From assembly GCF_036365525.1 (NCBI RefSeq), contig NC_090372.1, positions 94,341,815-94,405,814 of the forward strand: DNA of 64,000 nt. Reading direction: 5' to 3'. Both the position numbers and the translations under genes were made by a program. The notes under the pieces are model-generated. The model was not told the origin of the DNA and did not search any database. It saw only the letters and a program-made list of their open reading frames with translations. Source of the DNA: Heterodontus francisci. Its lineage: Eukaryota. Below, one piece after another: positions 1 through 56,813 of the stretch (the stretch's first letter is position 1; each line of letters opens with the position of its first letter).

Positions 1-365
1 AAAATCATAATTCGGCCTAGCATGCATTCGTGACAACCACTAAAAGCAAGGGACCTAGCGCTGAGCCCTGCGGAATCCGACTACAAACAGCCTTCCAGGT
101 ATGAAAATACCCATCAACCAATTAGCCTTTGCTTCCTGCCTCTGAGTCAATTGTGGATCCAACTTGCCAGTTTGTCTTAGATCCCATGGGCTTTTACATT
201 CCTGACCAGTCTGTCATGTGGGACCTTATCAAAAACCTTGCTAAAATCCATACAGACTATATCAAATGCACTACCCTCATTGCAACTCCTTGTTACCTTC
301 TGAAAATATTCAATCATGTTGGTCAGACATGACCTTTCCTTAACAATCTGTATTAGACTCTCCAA
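1..365 (-). mobile_element. CR1 LINE ORF2 reverse transcriptase fragment
   Basis: ORF 177..365(-) RSCLTNMIEYF...DIVCMDFSKVFDKVPHDRL is the CR1 RT motif; the upstream GSLQGSALGPL-type region is visible at about 50-80. Confidence 0.9.
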
Positions 366-11534: not shown

Positions 11535-11645
11535 TCAAGAAGCTGAAAATGCTGGAGATTTGGTCCTGCCTGAAACGTAGACTTGAATCTTCTCTCCACA
11601 GATGTTGACTGACCTGCTGTGTATAGCACCCATTTTCTGTTATTG
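11535..11645. mobile_element. Degenerate Penelope pseudo-LTR fragment
   Basis: ctgaaacgt...tctctccacagatgttgactgacctgctg resembles 45320-45390. Confidence 0.55.
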
Positions 11646-28040: not shown

Positions 28041-30049
28041 AAGTTTTAATATATTTTAAACAGCTTTTATTAGCAACACATTTCATGTTTTTAGAACAAT
28101 ACTGTACATTCTTGGTTTCTCAGATTTTATTTGGGAGTGAGTGTCTGTGTGGTACTTTTGGGAAGTAACTATACTTCAAATTGTTGATATTTACCATAAG
28201 ATAGAGTTTCCCATGTGGGTTTTCCCAATTGTCTGCTGCAACATCTATGGAATCCCTGGAGAACTGCCTGAAATGCACTTAGATTTGTAGCCACTTTTTA
28301 GGCACTAGCCACAGCCAAATGGGCAACTCTGCACCTTGATTTCCTTCAGACCATCAAAAGTGGGCAAGGTTAAACCCTTTCAAATGGCAGAACACCTCTG
28401 CATGTATAAGGCATTATCAGTTTTCGGCCGCAGTCTGTTCTGTCAGGCAGCTTTCATAATTACAAGGTGGGTACAAAACATTGTTTCCATGTATGTTTTA
28501 TGGCACAACTGGCTGGATAAGAATACTGGTAAATTATTAAAGATTTCAGAAGCACCAAGTATGTGAAATGAAGGCAGAGATCATTGTCTATTACAGCAGC
28601 AGGTTTTGTGATTGCTTGTCATTTATTTTGAGGCTTTGATCTTTTTGCTTTTTCTTGGAAGTTTGAAAATATTCAGCAATAATACTCTTTAATCTGTGCT
28701 GTTCTTATAATCTGTGCAGTCCTTATTTATTCCACCGTGCAATGAAGGGATAATACTTAGAACATCACTTACAGTAAATAAAGAAATACTGAACATTTTA
28801 GACTTGTACCATATTTTTGCAGCCTGTGTCCTGTGTTGGCCAGTCTGAGGATTTACTGATTCACAACTTTCACTTTAGCCTCAAATCTAACATAATTAGA
28901 CAGGGAGAATTATGTGACATGGGAACTTCTAAGAAGTAAATAAAATTGTGCAGACACGCACATATAGAAAATACATAAATGATAAATATTAATAGAAGAA
29001 ATGGCAGAAGTGGCTGGATAGCTCTCATAGCCAAGGATGACATGAAAATCTATCTAAAAGAATAAAATTAAAGTTCACAATGAATAATTACTACTGATGG
29101 AGCATTAATGAAACCTATGGTGGTGGATGGGCATTTAATCCACTCGTTTGAAGTGTGAGAATGTGAATCTGTAACAATCAAGGTCAATCTATGGTGTTAT
29201 ATAGAAAATGTCGTTAGTATGATATTGAAGAGTAAAATCTCTAACTACGACCTTACAAAGTTTAAGATGATTCTTTTCAATTGCTGCTCCCATCAACTGT
29301 GATGATTAACTCAATCCTTTATACTGGTGATTATATTATCATTGTGGAATCTGAAGTTGGGGGTAAGAAAATTATGTGCCACATGTACTCTCAAATTTCT
29401 AATCAAATACAAGAATTACGGCATTATAAAAATTGGGTCAGAGAGAGCAATAACATTCAGAGTTATTGAATTTGGATGAATTTAACTTTTCCACGTATTC
29501 TCGCATTCTTTTAAAAAGGGTGAGTTAGAGAGATTTTATATCCTCCAAAAATATTGTATAACTTAAGGCTTTTTTGTTCATTAACTGCATAATAATTTCA
29601 AACTGTACCTTTGCAGTTCTCCTGGCTCTCTCCTCAAGTGCACAGAAATATTTGAGAGAAACACCATGCATGATAGAAGCCTGTAATAAAAACAGAAATG
29701 GCTGGTAATAGGCAGCAGGTCATCAACATTTAAAAGAGGAAGACTCAGTAATATTTCAGGAAGGATCCTTCATCAATAGAGAAACCTTGTTTTGGGAACA
29801 CCATAAAAAAGAGGAGTGGGGAGAAAACAGACAGAAGTCATGAATTCAAATATGCTAACTACCCTTAATAAGCCAGTGTTGATGGGTTTAATGACCCGTA
29901 AATAGAAGTGAATGGTTTTGAATTTTGGAAATTGACAAGAAGATCTGAGGAAAAGTACTATAGAAAATTAAATGCATCTTATAGAATCGTAGGAGAGAGA
30001 AACAGTATGATCTTATTCTTATACACTTAAAAACATAGCAATAACACTT

Positions 30050-30978: not shown

Positions 30979-31051
30979 AATATGAATGTTCAGTCAGTGG
31001 AACATCAGGCTTGTAATCTGTGGGTCCAGGGTTCAAGTCCCCATTTGGGCA
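30979..31051 (+). tRNA. tRNA-Lys(UUU)-derived pseudogene; anticodon position now reads TGT
   Basis: Aligns without gaps to vertebrate tRNA-Lys(UUU) from the D arm on (gttcagtcagtggaacatcaggcttgtaatctgtgggtccagggttcaagtccccatttgggca); 5' acceptor strand degenerate; followed by a T-run at 31053-31061. Confidence 0.85.
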
Positions 31052-33049: not shown

Positions 33050-35612
33050 TAATAAAACAAGAAACACTGGAAATACTCAGCAGGTCTGGCAGCATCTGTG
33101 GAGAGAGAAGCAGAGTTAATGTTTCAGGTCAGTTTTTTTTTATTTCCAAAATATACTTTATTCATAAAAATCTGTAAAAAATACATGACAAAACAGTTTC
33201 AAACAGCACCAAGTCAAAAAATACAAACAGTGCAAAGGAGATCAGTTTCCTTCAATACAATCATGAGTTGCCTCACAACCCTTCCATTTCATTTGTCACG
33301 CCAGATACATTTTTACATTTTACAGCAAACAAAATTTTCCGGTACAGTTCGAGGGGTTTTCCATGGATCCAGCCCCTCAATTCAGCTTGGTGCGGGGACC
33401 TTACACAGTGGTCTTTCCCATTGAGCCTTTGCTGCGGCTGCCCCAAGCTTTAGTGCGTCCCTCAGCACGTAGTCCTGGACCTTGGACTGTGCCAGTCTGC
33501 GACATTCGGTTGTGGACAACTCTTTGCGCTGGAAGACCAGCAAGTTTCGGGCAGACCAAAGGGCATCTTTCACCGAATTGATAGTCCTCCAGCAGCAGGT
33601 GATGTTTATCTTGGTGTGCGTCCCTGGGAACAGCCTGTAGAGCACAGACTCCTGTGTTACACAGCTGCTTGGGATGAACCTCAACAAAAACCACTGCATC
33701 TCTTTCCACACCTATTTTGCAAAGACACATTCCAGAAGGAGGTGGACAACCGTCTCTTCCCCACCACAGCCACCGCGAGGGCATTGTGCGGAGGGGGTGA
33801 GACTCCGGGCGGGCAGGAAGGATCTGACGGGGAGGGCTCTTCTCACCACCAGCCAAACTACACCTTGGTGCTTGTTTGAAAGTTCTGGTGATGAAGCATT
33901 CCGCCAGATGACTTTGGCGGTCTGCTTGGGGAACCATCCGACAGGATCCACGTCTCCTTTTCCTGTAGGGCCTTGAAGACATTCCGTGCAGTCCACTGCC
34001 TGATGGATCGGTGGTCAAAGATGTTTTTCCACAGAAACTGCTCCACGAAGGATAGGTGGTACGGCACAGTCCAACTGGATGGAACGTTCCGCAGCAATGC
34101 GACCAAGCCCATCCTTCGCAACACCGGGGACAGATAGAACCTCAGCACGTAGTGACACTTGGAGTTTGCGTACTGGAGGTCTACACACAGCTTGATGCAG
34201 CCGCACACGAAGGTAGTCATCAGGATGAGGGCCACGTTGGGTACATTTTTCCCGCCCTTATCCAGAGGTTTGAACATCATGTCCCTCCGGACCCGGTCCA
34301 TTTTGGATCCCCAGATGAAGCGGAAAATGGCTCGGGTGACCGCCACAGCGAAGAAGTGGGTTATGGGCCAGACCTGCGCCACGTACAGCAACAACGTGAG
34401 CGCCCCGCACCTGATGACCAGGTTCTTACCCACAATGGAGAGAGATCGCTGCCCCCACATGCTCAGCTTGTGTTGTACCTTGGCTACTCCTTCCTCCCAG
34501 GTTTTGGTGCACGCCCCGGCCCTTCCGAACCATATCCCCAGCACCTTCAGGTAGTCTGACCTGACAGTGAAGAGGATAAAGGATCGGTCAGCCCAGTTCC
34601 CAAAGAACATGGCCTCGCTCTTGCTTTGGTTAACTTTGGCTCCCGAGGCCAGTTCACACTGGTCGCAGATGCTCATCAGTCTGCGCACAGACAGCGGATC
34701 CAAGCAAAAGACGGCGACGTCATCCATGTACAGGGAGGTTTTAACCTGAGTGCCTCCACTGCCTGGGATTGTCACCCCTCTTATGCTCGCATCCTTCCTA
34801 ATAGACTCAGCAAAGGGTTCAATACAGCAAACAAACAAGACCGGGGAGAGAGGACAGCCCTGTCTGACTCCAGATTGGATCGGGAAATTTTCCGATTCCC
34901 ACCCATTAATTGAGACTGCGCTACTGATGTTTGTGTAGAGCAGTTTGATCCAATTGCAGATTCCCTCCCCAAACCCCATTTTGGAGAGCACGTCCATCAC
35001 GTAGGTGTGTGATATCCTGTCAAAAGCCTTCTCCTGGTCCAGGCTGATGAGGCAGGTGTCCACCCTCCTGTCCCGTACATAGGCGGTCGTATCCCTGAGT
35101 AGCGCGAGACTATCGGAGATCTTCCTGCCGGGTACAGTACAGGTCTGATCAAGGTGGATCACCAACTCCAGAGCAGACTTGACTCAACTGGCTGTGACTT
35201 TGGACAGAATCTTGTAGTCAACATTAAGCAGTGAGATGGGCCGTCAATTTCTGATTTCTGCCCTCTCTCCCTTCTACTTGTCGATGAGGGTGATGATGCC
35301 TTTCCTCATGGATTCTGACATGCTGCCGGCCAGAAGCATACTCTCGTATACTTCCAGCAGGTCAGGGCCAACCCAGTCCCACAGAGCCGAATACAATCCA
35401 ACCGGTAAGCCATCGCTTCCGGGAGTTTTACTCGTCTCGAAGGATTCGCCGGCCTTTGTCAGCTCGTCCAGTGTTAGCGGCTTGTCCAGTCTCTCCCTCG
35501 TGCTGTCATCTAAGATCTCTGTGATAGATGACAGAAAGGACTGGGAGGCTCTGCTGTTTGTGGGCTTCACGTCATACAGCCCAGCATAAAAGGACCCTTC
35601 TTCAGAACTGGT
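33050..35612 (-). mobile_element. Penelope pseudo-LTR fragment (33050-33132 plus 35593-35612) split by Tx1
   Basis: The two halves rejoin as ...gtttcaggtcag|gacccttcttcagaactgg, matching the intact copy at 45190-45225. Confidence 0.8.
33133..35592 (-). mobile_element. Tx1-clade LINE, 5'-truncated, RT largely open
   Basis: ORF 33858..35165 SLDQEKAFDR, GVRQGCPLSP, LYMDD; upstream KTPGSDGLP; CPRGGCGGEETVVHLLLEC; poly(A); same family as 25588-27035. Confidence 0.95.
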
Positions 35613-42558: not shown

Positions 42559-44062
42559 CATAGAGATATGCCCTTCGGCCCATCGTGTCCATGCTGACCA
42601 TCAAGCACCTATTTATTCTAATCCCATTTTCTAGTACTTGGCCCTTAGCCGTATATGCAATAGCATTTCAAGTGCTCATCTAAATACTTCTTAAATGTTG
42701 TGAGGGTTCCTGCCTCTACCACCCCTTCAGGCAGTGTGTTCCAGATTCCAACCACAGTCTGGGTGAAAAAATGTTTCCTCAAATCCCCTCTAAACCTCCT
42801 GCCCCCTACCTTAAATCTATACCCCCGGTTATTGACACCTCCGCTAATGGAAAAGGTTTCTTCCTATCTACCCTATCTATGCCCCTCATAATTTTATATA
42901 CCTCAATCAGGGCCCCCCTCAGCCTTCTCTGCTCTAAGGAAAACAACCCTAGCCTATCCAGTCTCTCTTCATAGCTGAAATACTACAACCCAGGCAACAT
43001 CCTGTTAAATCTCCTCTGCACCCTCTCCAGTGCAATCACATCCTTCCTATAGTGTGGTGACCAGAATTGTACACAGTACTCCAGCTGTGGCCTAACTAGC
43101 GTTTGTACAGCTCCATCATAACTTCCTCCCTGCTCTTATATTCTATGCCTCGGCTAATAAAGGCAAGTATCCCATATGCCGTCCGAACCACCTTATCTAC
43201 CTGTGCTGCTGCCTTCAGTGATTTATGGACAAGTACACCAAGGTCCCTCTGTACTTCCGAGGGTCCTACCATCCATTGTATATTCCCTTGCCTTGTTAGT
43301 CCTCCCAAAATACATCACCTCACACTTCTCAGGCCTAAATTCCATTTGCCACTGCTCTGCCCATCTTACCAGCCCATCTATATCGTCCTGTAATCTAAGG
43401 CTTTCCTCCTCACTATTTACGATACCACCAATTTTTGTGTCAACTGCGAACTTACTGATCATACCTCCTATATTCACATCTAAATCATTAATGCACACTA
43501 CAAACAGCAAAGGTCCCAGCACCGATCCCTGCGGTACACCACTGGCCACAGGCTTCCAATTACAAAAAAAAACCTCGACCGTCACCCTCTGCTTCCTGCC
43601 ACTAAGCCAATTTTGGATCCAATTTGCCAAATTGCCCTGGATCCCATGGGCTCTTAACCTTCTTTACCAATCTCCCATGCAGGACCTTATCAAAAGCCTT
43701 ACTCAAGTCCATGTAGACTGCATCAACTGCCTTACCCTCATCTGCACATCTAGTCACCTCCTTGAAAAATTTAATTGTTAGGCATTATCTCCCCCGACAA
43801 AGCCATGTTGACTATCCCTGATTAATCCCTGCCTCTCCAAGTGGAGATTAATCCTGTCCCTCAGAACTTTTTCCAATAGTTTCCCTACCACTGATGTTGG
43901 ACTCACTGGCCTGTAATTACCTGGTTTATCCTTGCTACCCTTGTTGAATAATGGTACCACATTCGCTGTCCTCCAGTCCACTGGTACCTCTCCTGTGCCC
44001 AGAGAAGATTTGAAGATTTGTGTCAGAGCCCCTGCAATTTCCTCCCTTGCCTCACATATGCC
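42559..44062 (-). mobile_element. CR1 LINE, 5'-truncated
   Basis: DWRTANVVPLF..PGNYRPVS, SGVPQGSVLGPLLF, WQMEFRPEKCEVM. Confidence 0.93.
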
Positions 44063-45094
44063 CAAGCCCTGCCTATTACTTCCTTCTTGTAATCCCTGAT
44101 CTCTCTTTTGAAATTACATCTCTTTATTGGGAAGAATACTTACCATGGATCTCCAACTGGTTAATCAACACTATTTAAATTAAGTAATTTTTAAAACTCT
44201 TCCTAGACAAAGTTTTCAAGCAGCAAAATGTATTGCAATATTCTAGTGACGCATCGATTCAGTCCATCAGTCTCTGAATTATTTCTTCTTTATCACACAC
44301 TCACTTTGTTGATTGGATTTTCTACATTGAATCCCCAGTATAGCCAGGTTTCAAACTCATAGCTAAAAGCTTCAAGGTTTGACACCCAAAAACTGAATGC
44401 AAGTTATTCAGTTTGTCAGTCTGGGTCTTTCTTGCAGCTAACTTCAAAAATTGGTTTCGCCTTGTTAGTTATTAATTACCCACACACACAAAAAGCATTT
44501 TTTTTATTTCTACCAGTTACTGGTGCAAATTCATTTACTTTAACTCAAAAGCTTACTGATTTATGTATTAGGCAACATTATTTTTGTTGTTTAAGTGTTT
44601 CTGATCAAATTGTGATTTTATGTTATATTTTTGATAATCTTATTTAGGAATTTACAATGTACCATGCCACACATATAAACAAAAACTGAAGATTATTGAG
44701 CCACGTCAGAGACTCAGCATCCATGGGGCTGATTTTAATTTTCAACCCCACACAAAAAAAAAATCCCAATTTTTGAGCAGCCTCCAGCAGTCCCTTTAAC
44801 GACCGCTGGTTAGGCCATTCAACACCTCATACAAATGCCCATTTGTATCGGAAAATTTAAATTGGGGTCCTAGAATCAGCATTGGATGCCAATTTGCATA
44901 TTTAAGCAGTGTATGTTGCTCAACCATTTTCAGACAAGCCCTGAAAATTGCAGCAGGTGGGCCTTGGATGTTAATGATGCGGCCAAGGTGTCCCCTACAT
45001 TTTAACTGCCGATCACCAGAGAAATGGCTTTTTGGGCCCATCAAACCTGCTTTGGTCTGTTTTTCCATATGAACCAGGTAGTTTAATCCCATCA

Positions 45095-45935
45095 ATACAA
45101 AAGCAAAATGTAGAGGATGCTGGATCTGAAATGAAAACAGAAAAAGCTGAAAATACTCAGCAGGTCAGGCAGCATCTGAGAAACCGAGTCAACATTTCAG
45201 GGCAATGACCTTTTATCAGAACTGGGAAAAGTTAGAGAAGTAAAAGGTTTTAAGCAAGTGAAAGGGGGGAGGGTGGGAAAAAGAACAAAAGCCAGTTCTG
45301 ATGAAAAGTCACATAGACCTGAAACATTAACTCTGTTTTTCTCTCCACCGATGCTGCCTGATCTGCTGAGTATTTCCAGCATTTTCTCTTTTTGTTTCAG
45401 ATTTCCAACATTCACAGTAAATTGCATTTGAACAAAGGAGAAGGTCTGTGATAGGGTGGAGGGCAGGAGAGATCAAATGACAAAAGGTTTCATGCTGCAA
45501 GCCAAAAAGGAGGCTGTAAATTGCCTTCCGGACTCAACATTAAGTTCAACAATTTTAGATTGCAGCCTCTGCCCCCATTTTGTTTCCTTTTTCTTTGCTT
45601 TTTTCCCCTCTCTTGTTTCTCTCTTTTTGTTTCTGTTTTGCTTTTGGACAACAGCTGTTTATGTTTCTGCCATTCACACCTCCTCTGGACACAACTTTTG
45701 TTTCTTTATTTGTCCCATTACCACTCCCTTTGGCCTTGCAGCATGAAACCTTTTGTCATTTAATCACTCCTGCCCTCCACCCTATTAGAGACCTTCCCTT
45801 TTGTTCTTTTTCCCACCCTTCCCCTTTCACTTGCTTAAAACCTTTTACTTCTCTATCATTTATAGTAACTCTGTTTCTCTCCCCACAGATGCTGTCAGAA
45901 CTGCTGAATATTTCCAGCATTTCTGTTTTTATGTC
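45095..45935. mobile_element. Penelope-like element remnants in mixed orientations
   Basis: PSGLNIKFNNFR at about 45524 matches the C-terminal end of the Penelope GIY-YIG ORF; pseudo-LTR copies at 45095-45290 (-), 45291-45430 (+), 45430-45515 (-) and 45520-45935 (+). Confidence 0.8.
45294..45332 (+). ncRNA. Minimal type I hammerhead ribozyme motif, slightly decayed
   Basis: agtt-CTGATGA-a-aagtc acata gacct-GAAA-ca-TT-aact: core boxes, stem II, stem I AGUU/AACU; the palindromic stem III ACGU appears decayed to ACAU. Confidence 0.65.
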
Positions 45936-47907
45936 TAATCCCACTCTCCTGCTCAGATCCCAAGATCTTTAATGGTCCTTGTAAAATAGTTAATGGATTT
46001 TTAACCACAGTTTATGACGGAGAATTGCGCATTTTATCAAACCGCAGTGTAAAGAATTTTTTCTCCTTTATTCTTATTGTGATTGGCTTAAATTTCTGCC
46101 GCCTTGTTATTGTCTCACTGACCAGTGGAAACAATCTGTCACTATTTACCTTTTCATAATAGTTTACAATCCTAAAGACTTTGATCAACATTAACACCCC
46201 CACCCCCCACCACACATCTCAAGATTGTGCGTCAGAAGATGAATGTTTTTTCCCTAGATAGTCTGAAAGATGCTGTCGCCTTCCCCCCCACCCCCTCACC
46301 AAATCAGAGCTTATATGCAAGCTTCTCTTTTTCCTTGAGGTCATTCCAAATTGGTTTGTTTTAAAGTTCCTAATTTCAAATTAATGCTGTCAATACTTTG
46401 ATCTTTATTTATTGCAGCCTTTCTTGGCTCCGTTTCTATTGAAATGAGGCACCTCAGGGTTACATTTTATCTTTTTGCCTCCTCGTGCATTACTTATATA
46501 TCTTTAAACACCTTCGGGAAATTCTCACAACCACAGCTTCCTGTTAAATTTACAGCTTGATGTCATTAGTATCTGATTTACACTTTCATTCTAACCAGTT
46601 TTGCAAGCCCAGCAAACCTCGGGATTTCAGTGCATCAATCCACTTCACTTTAATTCCTACTGTCTGGTCCATGAATAGTAGTGTGAAAACAAAATCCTGA
46701 TTCATGTAGACCCATTCTTTATTTGTGTTTGACAGTGCTCAGCACTATAAATAAGGTTGTTTTGCTGTTAAATATTACCAACCTAACTCAGCACATTTTG
46801 GGAATCCACCAAAATGCAGATGAAAATACAAGTTTTCTGCTGGTGTCAATAAAATGCTAACCTAATCATGAGAGCCTGTGCAATTTGTGGAAATGTGATT
46901 TCATTACCAGCAATGAAAAAGTAGCAGTCAGTCACCATGTGTCTTCTATGCTGCTCCTTTCATATTACTCTAACAGCTAATGAGTCATTAACTAGATGTC
47001 AAAAAGTTGGATATTCTGGGGTGGGGGCAATGTGTTAAAATGTTAGCACAGAAAAGGTCTTGGAAGTATTGATAAGCACAATAATAAAGTGATATCGGAC
47101 ATTCTTAGTGAAAGAGAACAAAGCTTAATAACACATGCTGGACGGTATGATACTGTCTGCATGACTCTGGAAAAAAGCACAACCTAAAGAGTACAAATTT
47201 AAGGCAAGAGTAGCAGCACTGAAAATATGTGGACATGATGCAAAGTAATAATCATAAAAGATAGTGTGAAAAATGCTGTACTGACGCAAAGAAATGCCAA
47301 CAAGGATGCAGCAAATAAGAATTGCAAATGAAAATAGCAGCGTTATGCAAACTGCATTGTCCATGCCAGGGCAAGAAACTAAATGTACCACAGGAGGGAA
47401 TTTCCATGGATAAATTATTATTCTCATCTTTAAACACAAAATTGGCATATAGTAGGTGGAAAATCCTGTGAAGCATAGTGGATTTTGAACCCAAATTCCT
47501 AATATCTGCTCCCCGTAAGCAAAGCTCTGCACTGGGGACATATATTTTTAGAGTTTATCCTTTGTTCTATGATTTGTATGATACTTTATATCAACATATC
47601 CATACATACTGAATGTGCACATAAGCATAATAGTATTTAAAATGATAATACAGCATTCCAAGTAGGTTTGTGTGCTTATGTACACATAATGCACCATCTG
47701 GTGTCTTCACAGAGCAAGGAGCGTCCGCTGGAACCTCACAGAGCACTAGACAGCAGTATTTCAGAACCAGCACAGAAACATTCACTTTGGGAGAAGGAAA
47801 TAGTGATGGCCAGGAAAAATCTTCTTTCCAGTCCTTAGCCAGTCTGTTCTCGAACCAGATACTTGGACAAGCATTTCAGCGAAAAGAGAGACCCAGATTC
47901 AGATCAG

Positions 47908-48820
47908 TAGGTTTGCAGATGCCACGAAAATTGGTGGTGTCGTAAATAGTGAGGAGGAAAGCCTTAGATTACAGGACAATATAGATGGGCTGGTAAACTG
48001 GGCAAATGGAATTTAATCCTGAGAAGTGTGAGGTGATGCATTTTGGGAGGACTAACAAGGCAAGGGAATATACAATGGATGGTAGGATCCTAGGGAGTAC
48101 AGAGGGTCAGAGGGACCTTGGTGTACTTGTCCATAGATCACTAAAGACAGCAGCACAGGTAGATAATGTGGTTAGGACGGCATATGGGATACTTGCCTTT
48201 ATTAGCCGAGGCATAGAATATAAGAACAGGGAGGTTATGATGGAGCTGCATAAAATGCTAGTTAGGCCACAGCTGGAGTACTGTGAACAGTTCTAGTCGC
48301 CACACTATAGGAAGGATGTGATTGCACTGGAAAGGGTGCAGAGAAGTTTCACCAGGATGTTGCCTGGGCTGGTGCATTTCAGCTATGAAGAGAAACTGGA
48401 TAGGCTAGGGTTGTTTTCCTTAGAGCAGAGAAGGCTGAGGGGGGGCATGATTGAGGTATATAAAATTATGAGGGGCATTGTTAGGATAGATAGGAAGAGA
48501 CATTTTCCCTTAGCGGAGGTGTCAATAACCAGGGGACAGAGATTTAAGGGAAGGGGCAGGAGGTTTAGAGGGGAGTTGAGGAAAAAGAATTTCTCCCAGA
48601 GGGTGGTTGGAATCTGGAACACACTGCCTGAAGTGCTCCTGCCCAGAGGCAGGAACCTTCACAACATTTAAGAAGTATTTAGATGAGCACTTGAAATGTT
48701 ATAGCATATAAGGCTACGGGCCAAGTGCTGGAAAATGGGATTAGAATAGATGGGTGCTTGATGGCCGGCACAGACACGATGGGCCAAAGGGCCTGTTTCT
48801 GTGCTGTATAACACTATGAC
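47908..48820 (+). mobile_element. CR1 3' fragment, same subfamily as 42559-44062, inverted
   Basis: MEFNPEKCEVMHFGRTNKAREYTMDGR is nearly identical between the two copies; complete 3' tail. Confidence 0.93.
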
Positions 48821-55146: not shown

Positions 55147-56813
55147 TTTGTGTGCCTTACCCACTCCCCCCTCCCCTGCCACTTTTACTGCCAACTACCT
55201 GAAAATAGTTCAGGCCTCATTAAAATACAGTCAGCGAGCTGCCCAGTGCTCAATGAAGATGGTTCAGACCTCCCACTGAATGGTCTCATGCGGTTACAGT
55301 GGATACACTGCCAAATTCGTGCCTCAATGTTTAAAATCAAATCCATAGATTTGAAATGGGAACCCACATCATAAAAGAACCTTTGACAAATAATTTTCTG
55401 TTTGCATGACAGAATAATACAAATTGAGTTGAAACCCATTAGTGGGTCATTTTTGTGTTAGGTTGTCATGATAAAAATAACATTTTTTGTTTATATCCCT
55501 CTTCAATCAAAAACAGAATTTCCTTGTATTTAAGAATGAACTTGCATTTATATAGCAGATTTCACACTCTGAGGAATTCCCAAAGTGGTTTCCGGACCAT
55601 GAATTGTTTTTTAAAAATGGTAGTTACTGTTGTTTACAAGCAAAGGGAACAATTTATTTACCAGTCTCCAGTTCTGATGTGACATCTACACTGGAAACAT
55701 TATCCTATCTTTTTCAAATGTTAGAGTTGCTGTTATATCCTGGCTTTTAGCTCATATTTTCAGAATTTGACATTTCTTTCTTATCCACATTTTCCTGTTC
55801 GTATCTTTGCTCATGCAATGTAAGCTGCAGGATATTTCATTCAGTCCCTCAGTAACAAACCACATTGATTTCCATGTTGACTTGTATCTTTTCAGTATTA
55901 CACTGGCCATTTTCAGCATGCAGATGAAATCTGTGCTATATGGTGCATTGTAATTTGGGCGGGCAGCAGGAACGCAGCAGCAATCTTTCTGGCGCAGCCT
56001 CTTAACTGGCTGTTGCTGGACCCGCCATCCAATTAAGGACAGCAGGCTGGCTCTCCACACTGCCGGCCCAATCAGGAGGAGGCTGAGATGGATCATCCAC
56101 TTGGCATTTTTGGCTGAAGATGGTTGCAAACGTTTCAGTCTTGTCTTTTGCACTCATGTGCTGGGCTTCCCCATCATGAGGATGTTTGTGAAGCCTCCTC
56201 CTCCTGCTAGTTTAAAAGTCCACCACCAGTCACAACTGGATGTGACAAGACTACAGAGCTTTGATCGGATTGGTTGGTTGTGGGATCCCTTCACTCCGTC
56301 TATAGAATGCTGCTTCTGCCATTTAGGATGCATATAGTCCAGTGTTGTAGCTTCACCAGGTTGGCATCTCATGAAAAGTATGAAAGCCTGTGTATGATTG
56401 TTCAATTTTTAAAAAGAAAGTTTATGCCTGGATTTTTAATTGTTGAATGTCTGTTTTCCTGTTTCAATTTGTAATCTATTTGTTTGTAATGATTGCCTTC
56501 TTGAAATAATGTTTTCAATAAGAAACCAAAATGATGTGATTACACCTGCTAATGTGAGAGATTCTGTTCAAGGTCTGTGTGTATTTTCTGAGATCATAGA
56601 AAACATTCAAGTGGGAATCTGCTTGTTGAGTTCTGATAAAAAGTCATTAGCAGTTGGTGTGGGTTTTTTTTTTGCTTTTCGAGAATCTGATGTATCCATG
56701 AGCTTGTACTCATGAAACTACTTTTGATATTTAAGTACTCCACGGGGCTGAAATGCCTTCACACTTTCTCACTGGGTCAAGCAACTGAAAAATAAACACT
56801 CATACTGAGGTCC

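What the first reader, a model, noticed from the sequence alone, without database searches (positions are those of the whole stretch)
45095..45935. Hammerhead ribozyme motifs in shark Penelope repeats, arranged as inverted copies
Seen: a CUGAUGA-stem II-GAAA-UH core with stem I at 45294-45332 (+), on the same strand as the GIY-YIG C-terminus (PSGLNIKFNNFR). An inverted copy at about 45188-45224 has core CUGAUAA; the motif is deleted in the 45850-45870 copy; weaker relics lie at about 29745-29780 and 55668-55705. Known: Penelope-like elements carry minimal type I hammerheads with a palindromic stem III thought to act as dimers. Inference: the family consensus (probably GAAACGUU) may self-cleave, and short pLTR units may spread as non-autonomous retrozyme-like elements. 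The copies here are probably inactive.
Basis: partly seen in the sequence, partly recalled or inferred. Interest (0 to 1): 0.7.

Follow-up and report, generated by a model that had tools for sequence, protein, structure and literature searches.

The report
Nested Penelope stubs with decayed hammerheads
These are damaged hammerhead-ribozyme motifs in two nested dead copies of a very abundant Penelope-type jumping gene, a combination already described, and the family's short copies begin at the motif's front edge rather than at its predicted cut site, so they are likely by-products of copying uncut RNA and not a separate ribozyme-driven element.

Summary
The motif is real and of a known kind: the minimal type I hammerhead of a Penelope-like element (PLE), Neptune type. 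The locus is two insertions: an inverted pair (45092-45932, 11-bp target duplication) and, inside it, a later 138-bp solo copy (45292-45429, 9-bp duplication) that carries the reported motif. All three motifs here are damaged. Genome-wide, 23,829 copies keep the U4 core (control 20), and the base pair of stem II changes in step between subfamilies. The retrozyme idea is not supported: no tandem arrays were seen, and of 126 sampled copy ends reaching the motif's front edge 61 stop there, while 5 of 154 stop at the cut site; 12 of 21 starting exactly at stem I carry an extra G, as a capped RNA start would give. The youngest subfamily (35,853 exact copies) has a U4C core. Copies that hold the ORF start stop at the upstream motif less often (10 of 50). 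Cleavage and circles could not be tested. This scan has noted the front-edge starts and the altered core before, in this genome and others; I did not find them in print.

The parts
45081..45091 (.). left target-site duplication of the outer insertion
   Evidence: 10 of 11 bases match 45933-45943
45092..45291 (-). inverted arm, distal part: 3' UTR end, hammerhead motif and long tail
   Evidence: continuous with 45439-45512 once the solo copy is left out; aligns to the plus arm
45187..45223 (-). damaged hammerhead motif (core CUGAUAA, stem II mismatch, CpG decay in stem III)
45283..45291 (.). left target-site duplication of the solo copy
   Evidence: 8 of 9 bases match 45430-45438
45292..45429 (+). 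solo copy: hammerhead motif plus long tail, starting 6 bases before C3; inserted into the inverted arm
   Evidence: same boundaries as many copies elsewhere
45294..45332 (+). minimal type I hammerhead motif with intact core, one stem II mismatch and a broken stem III palindrome; predicted cut after 45328
   Evidence: sequence; its predicted lowest-energy fold is not the hammerhead fold
45430..45438 (.). right target-site duplication of the solo copy
45439..45512 (-). inverted arm, proximal part (3' UTR)
   Evidence: inverse of 45724-45797
45513..45932 (+). plus arm: 5'-truncated PLE end with 3' UTR, motif deleted at about 45861, short tail
45524..45559 (+). last codons of the GIY-YIG endonuclease (PSGLNIKFNNFR)
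   Evidence: same peptide ends the ORF in L004, L018, L028 and L238
45933..45943 (.). right target-site duplication of the outer insertion
29684..29775 (-). old relic of the same module
   Evidence: profile hit E 4e-4
33053..33133 (-). partial copy starting inside stem II
   Evidence: profile hit E 9e-23
11569..11645 (+). partial, diverged copy starting inside stem II
   Evidence: profile hit E 7e-8

Best explanation
The locus is two nested, decayed insertions of a Penelope-like retrotransposon whose terminal repeat carries a minimal hammerhead motif, and the short motif-bearing copies are likely run-off products made when the element's reverse transcriptase copies an uncut, probably capped RNA back to its start at the motif's front edge. 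Shown: nesting, target duplications, damage, copy boundaries, two tail lengths, position of the module before the ORF. Inferred: transcription starts at the first base of stem I; reverse transcription starts about 97 or about 132 bases downstream of C3; when that happens in the copy of the module at the RNA's 5' end the product is a 100-135-base stub, and when it happens in the copy at the 3' end the product is an ordinary 5'-truncated element; priming on both target strands, one at each start site, gives the inverted pairs. The ribozyme would act only as a dimer or with protein help and is not needed for making the stubs.
For: Nesting and duplications. Coding parent: 877-codon open frame with RT and a CX4CX2C linker before a GIY-YIG-type motif; the module lies 168 bases before the ORF start in tandem copies. 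5' ends of tail-anchored copies: 61 of 126 at risk stop within -7..+5 of C3 (0.037 per base) against 5 of 154 in +24..+35, which holds the cut site at +29 (0.003 per base); non-inverted young copies alone 17 of 46 against 1 of 50. Extra G before the first stem I base in 12 of 21 copies, background 24%, p=0.001. 3' ends fall in two groups; 15 of 17 young inverted pairs join one short and one long tail, as does the pair here. The Anolis PLE starts reverse transcription at two internal sites, extends both strands and uses uncut RNA in vitro (PMC11167929).
Against: No RNA 5' end was observed: only contigs were available. Copies that hold the ORF start stop at the upstream motif's edge in only 10 of 50 cases against 31 of 66 young first-pass ends (p=0.003), so one linear RNA starting there cannot be the template of all long copies; read-through RNA, template jumps or circles are needed as well. 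Samples are the first matches on contigs C1 and C2, not random; arms of inverted pairs are not independent. The G test left out 21 copies with C before the start and 124 that continue upstream; at the next base 7 of 18 had G (not tested).
Confidence: 0.68

Rival explanations
1. The short units are non-autonomous retrozyme-like elements released and circularised by their hammerheads.
For: Motif complete and abundant; stem II pairing kept across subfamilies; non-LTR retrozymes are reported to derive from PLE repeats and were found in one cartilaginous fish (bioRxiv 10.64898/2026.07.22.740005).
Against: Retrozymes are defined as tandem arrays; in 153 tail-anchored loci there were 7 same-strand motif pairs under 1 kb (6 distinct, spacings 254-875, none of three units) against 18 opposite-strand pairs. 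Stubs carry the same subfamily changes as coding copies. Ends do not fall at the cut site.
Confidence: 0.07
2. The hammerheads do cut and religate the unit-length RNA, and long copies and terminal repeats are copied from circles, while stubs come from uncut capped RNA.
For: 40 of 50 ORF-start copies run on past the upstream motif without a seam; this is the model proposed in PMC4209133; a religated circle leaves no end at the cut site; the palindrome and stem II pairing are kept even in the youngest subfamily.
Against: Read-through tandem transcripts or template jumps explain the same pattern; the youngest subfamily has U4C, described as lowering activity considerably in vitro though compatible with viroid infectivity (PMC3088659, passage); no reads ended at the cut site in Anolis. 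This rival can hold together with the best explanation for the stubs.
Confidence: 0.25
3. The pile-up of 5' ends is a reverse-transcriptase stop at RNA structure or at a splice acceptor, not a transcription start.
For: A smaller cluster at +12..+23 in older copies (13 of 76) lies in stem II; the main families have a branch-point-like word and an AG just before the motif; in D. virilis an intron ends at helix I (PMC4209133).
Against: No shared upstream exon sequence precedes the stubs; a rarer subfamily lacks the AG yet 4 of its 8 copies also start there by eye; the extra G is not predicted by a stall; stem I's 3' arm is already copied when the enzyme reaches this point.
Confidence: 0.15

Closest known systems
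Minimal hammerheads in pLTRs of metazoan PLEs (Cervera and De la Pena 2014, PMC4209133; parts 1-2 of 4 of the text read)
   Same: Short helix I, extra base before helix II, palindromic positions 15.2-16.2, mostly single dispersed motifs from truncated elements, opposite-strand pairs 100-700 bp apart.
   Different: The parts read name fishes, coelacanth, frog and reptiles, not sharks, and do not map copy ends or report a U4C core.
Neptune-type endonuclease-bearing PLE insertions (Craig et al. 2021, PMC8557442; 12 passages read)
   Same: Partial tandems, an inverted 5'-truncated copy, a 30-40-bp tail at one end only, cysteine linker before the endonuclease.
   Different: Fixed-start stubs at the motif's edge are not described in the passages seen; clade assigned here by motif only, no tree.
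Poseidon element PAc of Anolis carolinensis (Frangieh et al. 2024, PMC11167929; parts 1-2 of 4 read)
   Same: Two internal start sites that define the tail, both strands extended, uncut RNA as main template, protein-assisted ribozyme.
   Different: Other clade; its ORF starts inside the motif, here 168 bases downstream; 5' ends of genomic copies are not analysed in the parts read.
Non-LTR retrozymes (Cervera and De la Pena 2020, PMC7229834, passages; Li et al. 2026 bioRxiv 10.64898/2026.07.22.740005, parts 1-3 of 5)
   Same: Type I hammerhead in a short non-coding unit related to PLE repeats.
   Different: Those are head-to-tail arrays that yield circles; these are solo or inverted copies identical to the end of the coding element.

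Membership tests
Endonuclease-bearing Penelope-like element | Single ORF with RT and C-terminal GIY-YIG endonuclease | tested here: met
   877-codon open frame in L181; RVT_1 E 2e-4, below Pfam's cut-off; GIY-YIG-type motif read by eye, and PF01541 on some relatives; nearest named relative Chiloscyllium punctatum, 69% identity
Endonuclease-bearing Penelope-like element | Partial tandems, inverted truncated copy, optional 30-40-bp tail | tested here: met
Neptune clade | CX2-5CxxC linker before the endonuclease | tested here: met
   CX4CX2C in L181; feature from PMC8557442, shared with Nematis
Neptune clade | Placement in an RT tree | not tested
   no named reference set was at hand
PLE minimal type I hammerhead | Core CUGANGA...GAAA...UH with helices I and II | tested here: met
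   older subfamilies: 23,829 matches against 20 control; youngest subfamily deviates at position 4; copies in the window are damaged
PLE minimal type I hammerhead | Palindromic positions 15.2-16.2 | tested here: met
   ACGU is the family form; ACAU and AUGU are the two CpG decays
PLE minimal type I hammerhead | Compensatory changes in stem II | tested here: met
   base pair A-U 41, G.U 25, G-C 98, A.C 0 of 164 distinct copies (about two events in the parent lineage); next pair A-U for G-C in a rare long-loop subfamily, 8 of 14 matches
PLE minimal type I hammerhead | Compensatory changes in stem I | tested here: inconclusive
   only a one-sided A-U to G.U change in the rare subfamily
PLE minimal type I hammerhead | Self-cleavage as a dimer | not testable with these tools
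   needs in vitro assay; no raw reads
Non-LTR retrozyme | Head-to-tail arrays of motif-bearing units | tested here: not met
   no array of three or more in 153 loci; 6 distinct same-strand pairs with unlike spacings; not searched genome-wide
Non-LTR retrozyme | Unit-length circular RNA | not testable with these tools
   contigs only

The most novel reading that the evidence does not exclude
The tens of thousands of copies record the Penelope cycle: the RNA starts at the first base of the hammerhead, stubs are copied from uncut capped RNA, long copies run through the upstream repeat on a concatemer, circle or by a template jump, and the latest burst spread with a weakened U4C ribozyme that is still under selection for its fold, so the motif serves mainly as a 5' end structure or a slow, protein-timed switch and not as the unit-releasing nuclease.
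Probability: 0.3. Interest if true: 0.6.

Novelty: new member of a known kind. Interest (0 to 1): 0.3.

Why it matters
The motif itself adds one more lineage to a described class. What could matter is the family: the role of hammerheads in PLEs is stated to be unclear (PMC8557442), and here are a mapped candidate start site, paired U4 and C4 natural variants, and near-intact coding copies with which cleavage, capping and the origin of the terminal repeat can be tested directly. The copies in this window are inert examples.

Tried and rejected
Rfam scan: no hammerhead family at E<=10; a strict descriptor scan found only the inverted copy. RNA evidence: 23 runs, all contigs; four laid on a tandem junction gave a depth profile like the genomic copy profile, no pile-up of ends and no GT..AG joint among the 15 of 25 joints shown, so they say nothing on cleavage, splicing or circles. 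Cofolding two copies gave the palindromic stem III duplex for two of three family copies but not a full dimer fold; energy models do not capture this and I give it no weight. An early idea of a fixed 5' end just inside the ORF (three copies) failed once 30 more were seen. The idea that canonical U4 in older copies is only CpG decay was rejected: all 41 A-U-type copies have U4. The Luense et al. paper on PLE hammerhead dimers is not held; I saw only its reference and a review's account (PMC6765202, passages). bioRxiv supplements were closed, so the shark retrozyme families listed by Li et al. 2026 could not be compared with this family. One search was mis-specified and gave nothing. No related genomes are held for this window, so no cross-species covariation was done.

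Full report
Observation. The motif is at 45294-45332 (+): stem I AGUU/AACU, core CUGAUGA from 45298, an extra A, a 5-pair stem II with one A.C mismatch, GAAA at 45321, ACAU where the family has ACGU, and a predicted cut after 45328. The inverted copy (C3 at 45219) has G8 changed to A, a stem II mismatch and the opposite CpG decay; the third copy has lost 31 bases covering the motif. The 29.7 kb relic is hit by a family profile and the 55.7 kb relic is not. Two more partial copies lie at 33053-33133 and 11569-11645. Rfam has no matching family, but the core pattern occurs 23,829 times in the 6.0-Gb genome against 20 for the reversed control.

Anatomy. The region is two insertions. The outer one spans 45092-45932 between 11-bp duplications (10 of 11 alike) and is an inverted pair: a minus arm ending in the long tail and a plus arm that starts in the last codons of the endonuclease and ends in the short tail. 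The reported motif belongs to a 138-bp solo copy at 45292-45429, with its own 9-bp duplication (8 of 9 alike), inserted into the minus arm; without it the minus arm aligns continuously to the plus arm. The two facing motifs are therefore neighbours by nesting, not the ends of one unit, and being on opposite strands they cannot form a dimer in one transcript.

Parent element. A protein search with an endonuclease fragment gave 150 scored matches of 68,091 candidates, with open frames up to 877 codons. That frame holds RT (RVT_1 E 2e-4), a CX4CX2C linker and a GIY-YIG-type motif, which fits Neptune or Nematis by the description in PMC8557442 (passages); no tree was built. In tandem copies the motif and tail run straight into the ORF, whose ATG lies 168 bases after C3.

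Is it a ribozyme? Among 164 distinct copies matching one motif expression, the pair at the base of stem II is A-U in 41, G.U in 25, G-C in 98 and A.C in none; this reflects about two changes in the parent lineage, not 164 events. A rare subfamily with a longer loop swaps the next pair to A-U (8 of 14 genome matches; 5 others look like double transitions in the main family and one has an insertion). Stem I shows only a one-sided change. Divergence downstream of the motif orders the classes: U4/A-U 0.121, U4/G.U 0.092, C4/G-C 0.030. In the youngest background 35,853 copies have C at core position 4 and 1,761 have U; in 65 young arms TG at this site (5) is no commoner than at the two other CpGs (5 and 2), so those U4 copies look like decay. 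PMC3088659 (passage) says U4C lowers activity considerably in vitro yet allows viroid infectivity. So the fold was kept while a core base changed; activity is untested.

Where copies begin. I sampled copies by their tail alone: 88 older (91 less 3 duplicates) and 82 young arms (83 less 1), the first matches on contig C1. Of 126 that reach position +5, 61 stop within -7..+5; of 154 that reach the cut-site bin +24..+35, 5 stop there. Non-inverted young copies give 17 of 46 and 1 of 50. Eleven non-inverted young copies starting in -6..+4 have a detectable duplication. Following a lead from earlier scan notes I checked the base before copies that start exactly at stem I: G in 12 of 21, background 24%, p=0.001, after leaving out 124 continuing copies and 21 preceded by C. 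Reading this G as a copied cap rests on my recall of other retroelements; one search listed one paper on viral DNA, which I did not read. 3' ends fall at about +94..101 or +129..141, and 15 of 17 young inverted pairs join one of each.

A result against the simple model. Among 90 copies anchored at the ORF start (91 less 1 duplicate; 22 of the first 30 were checked to run more than 1.1 kb into the ORF, the other 60 loci were not checked), 10 of 50 that reach the upstream motif stop at its edge. This is still above the neighbouring rate but below 31 of 66 for young first-pass ends (p=0.003); none of 53 stops at the cut site. Most long copies thus had a template that continues upstream of the presumed start: tandem read-through RNA, a jump between the two repeats, or a religated circle. 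The data exclude cut linear RNA as a common template but do not exclude circles.

Mechanism. Most likely transcription starts at the first base of stem I, reverse transcription starts in the tail at one of two sites as shown for the Anolis element (PMC11167929), and starts in the 5' copy of the module run off the RNA end as stubs such as 45292-45429. Priming on both strands gives inverted pairs such as the outer insertion. The start site, cap and priming order are inferred.

Retrozyme test. Non-LTR retrozymes are tandem arrays that make circles (PMC7229834, passages; bioRxiv 2026, where 1 of 9 Xenopus dimers cleaved). In 153 tail-anchored loci there were 6 distinct same-strand pairs under 1 kb with unlike spacings and no longer array. 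The feature was tested and not met in this sample.

Novelty. Minimal hammerheads in PLE repeats, solo motifs, inverted copies and tails are published. Searches found no paper on shark PLE hammerheads, on stubs starting at the motif's edge, or on a U4C PLE family; the library lacks most subscription journals and the Luense et al. paper, and preprint supplements were closed. D. virilis Penelope has an internal promoter with its start 46 bases before an intron that ends at helix I (PMC2377424 passages), so a start near the motif has precedent. This scan has already recorded the front-edge starts, the cap idea and the altered core in this genome and others (40 notes in at least 15 genomes; 79 notes in this genome); look-ups found no note holding my words for the second-pass comparison. 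Verdict: real, a new member of a known kind, inert here; interest 0.3.

Noticed in passing
L238:1261-1356 and L235: A 30-codon upstream frame starts at +51, and four pyrimidine-rich stretches ending in AG lie between the motif's front edge and the ORF start at +168; in older subfamilies the ATG inside CUGAUGA is in frame with it. Splicing or translational control is possible.
   Followed up: no
L301, L303, L305-L309, L311, L085: Rare subfamily with a 6-nt loop II, an A-U pair in place of G-C in stem II and GGUU as the 5' arm of stem I.
   Followed up: partly
window 55668-55705: Shares the start of the core and GAAACAUU with the family but not the tail; may be a relic of another PLE family.
   Followed up: partly
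window 43366-43460 and 47902-47996: 95-nt inverted repeat, 93% complementary, 4.4 kb apart, on either side of the locus.
   Followed up: no
window 30988-31043: Weak tRNA-like match (E 2), possibly the head of a SINE.
   Followed up: no
L069-L072; L217-L218: Near-identical insertions with shared flanks, so segmental duplications on contig C1; counted once.
   Followed up: yes
L235-L236: Two ORF starts 3.3 kb apart on one strand with identical upstream sequence: a full tandem of young elements.
   Followed up: partly
L231-L260, L315-L374: Copies holding the ORF start end more often between +92 and +149 and between -21 and -200 than first-pass copies do in the upstream stretch; unexplained.
   Followed up: no
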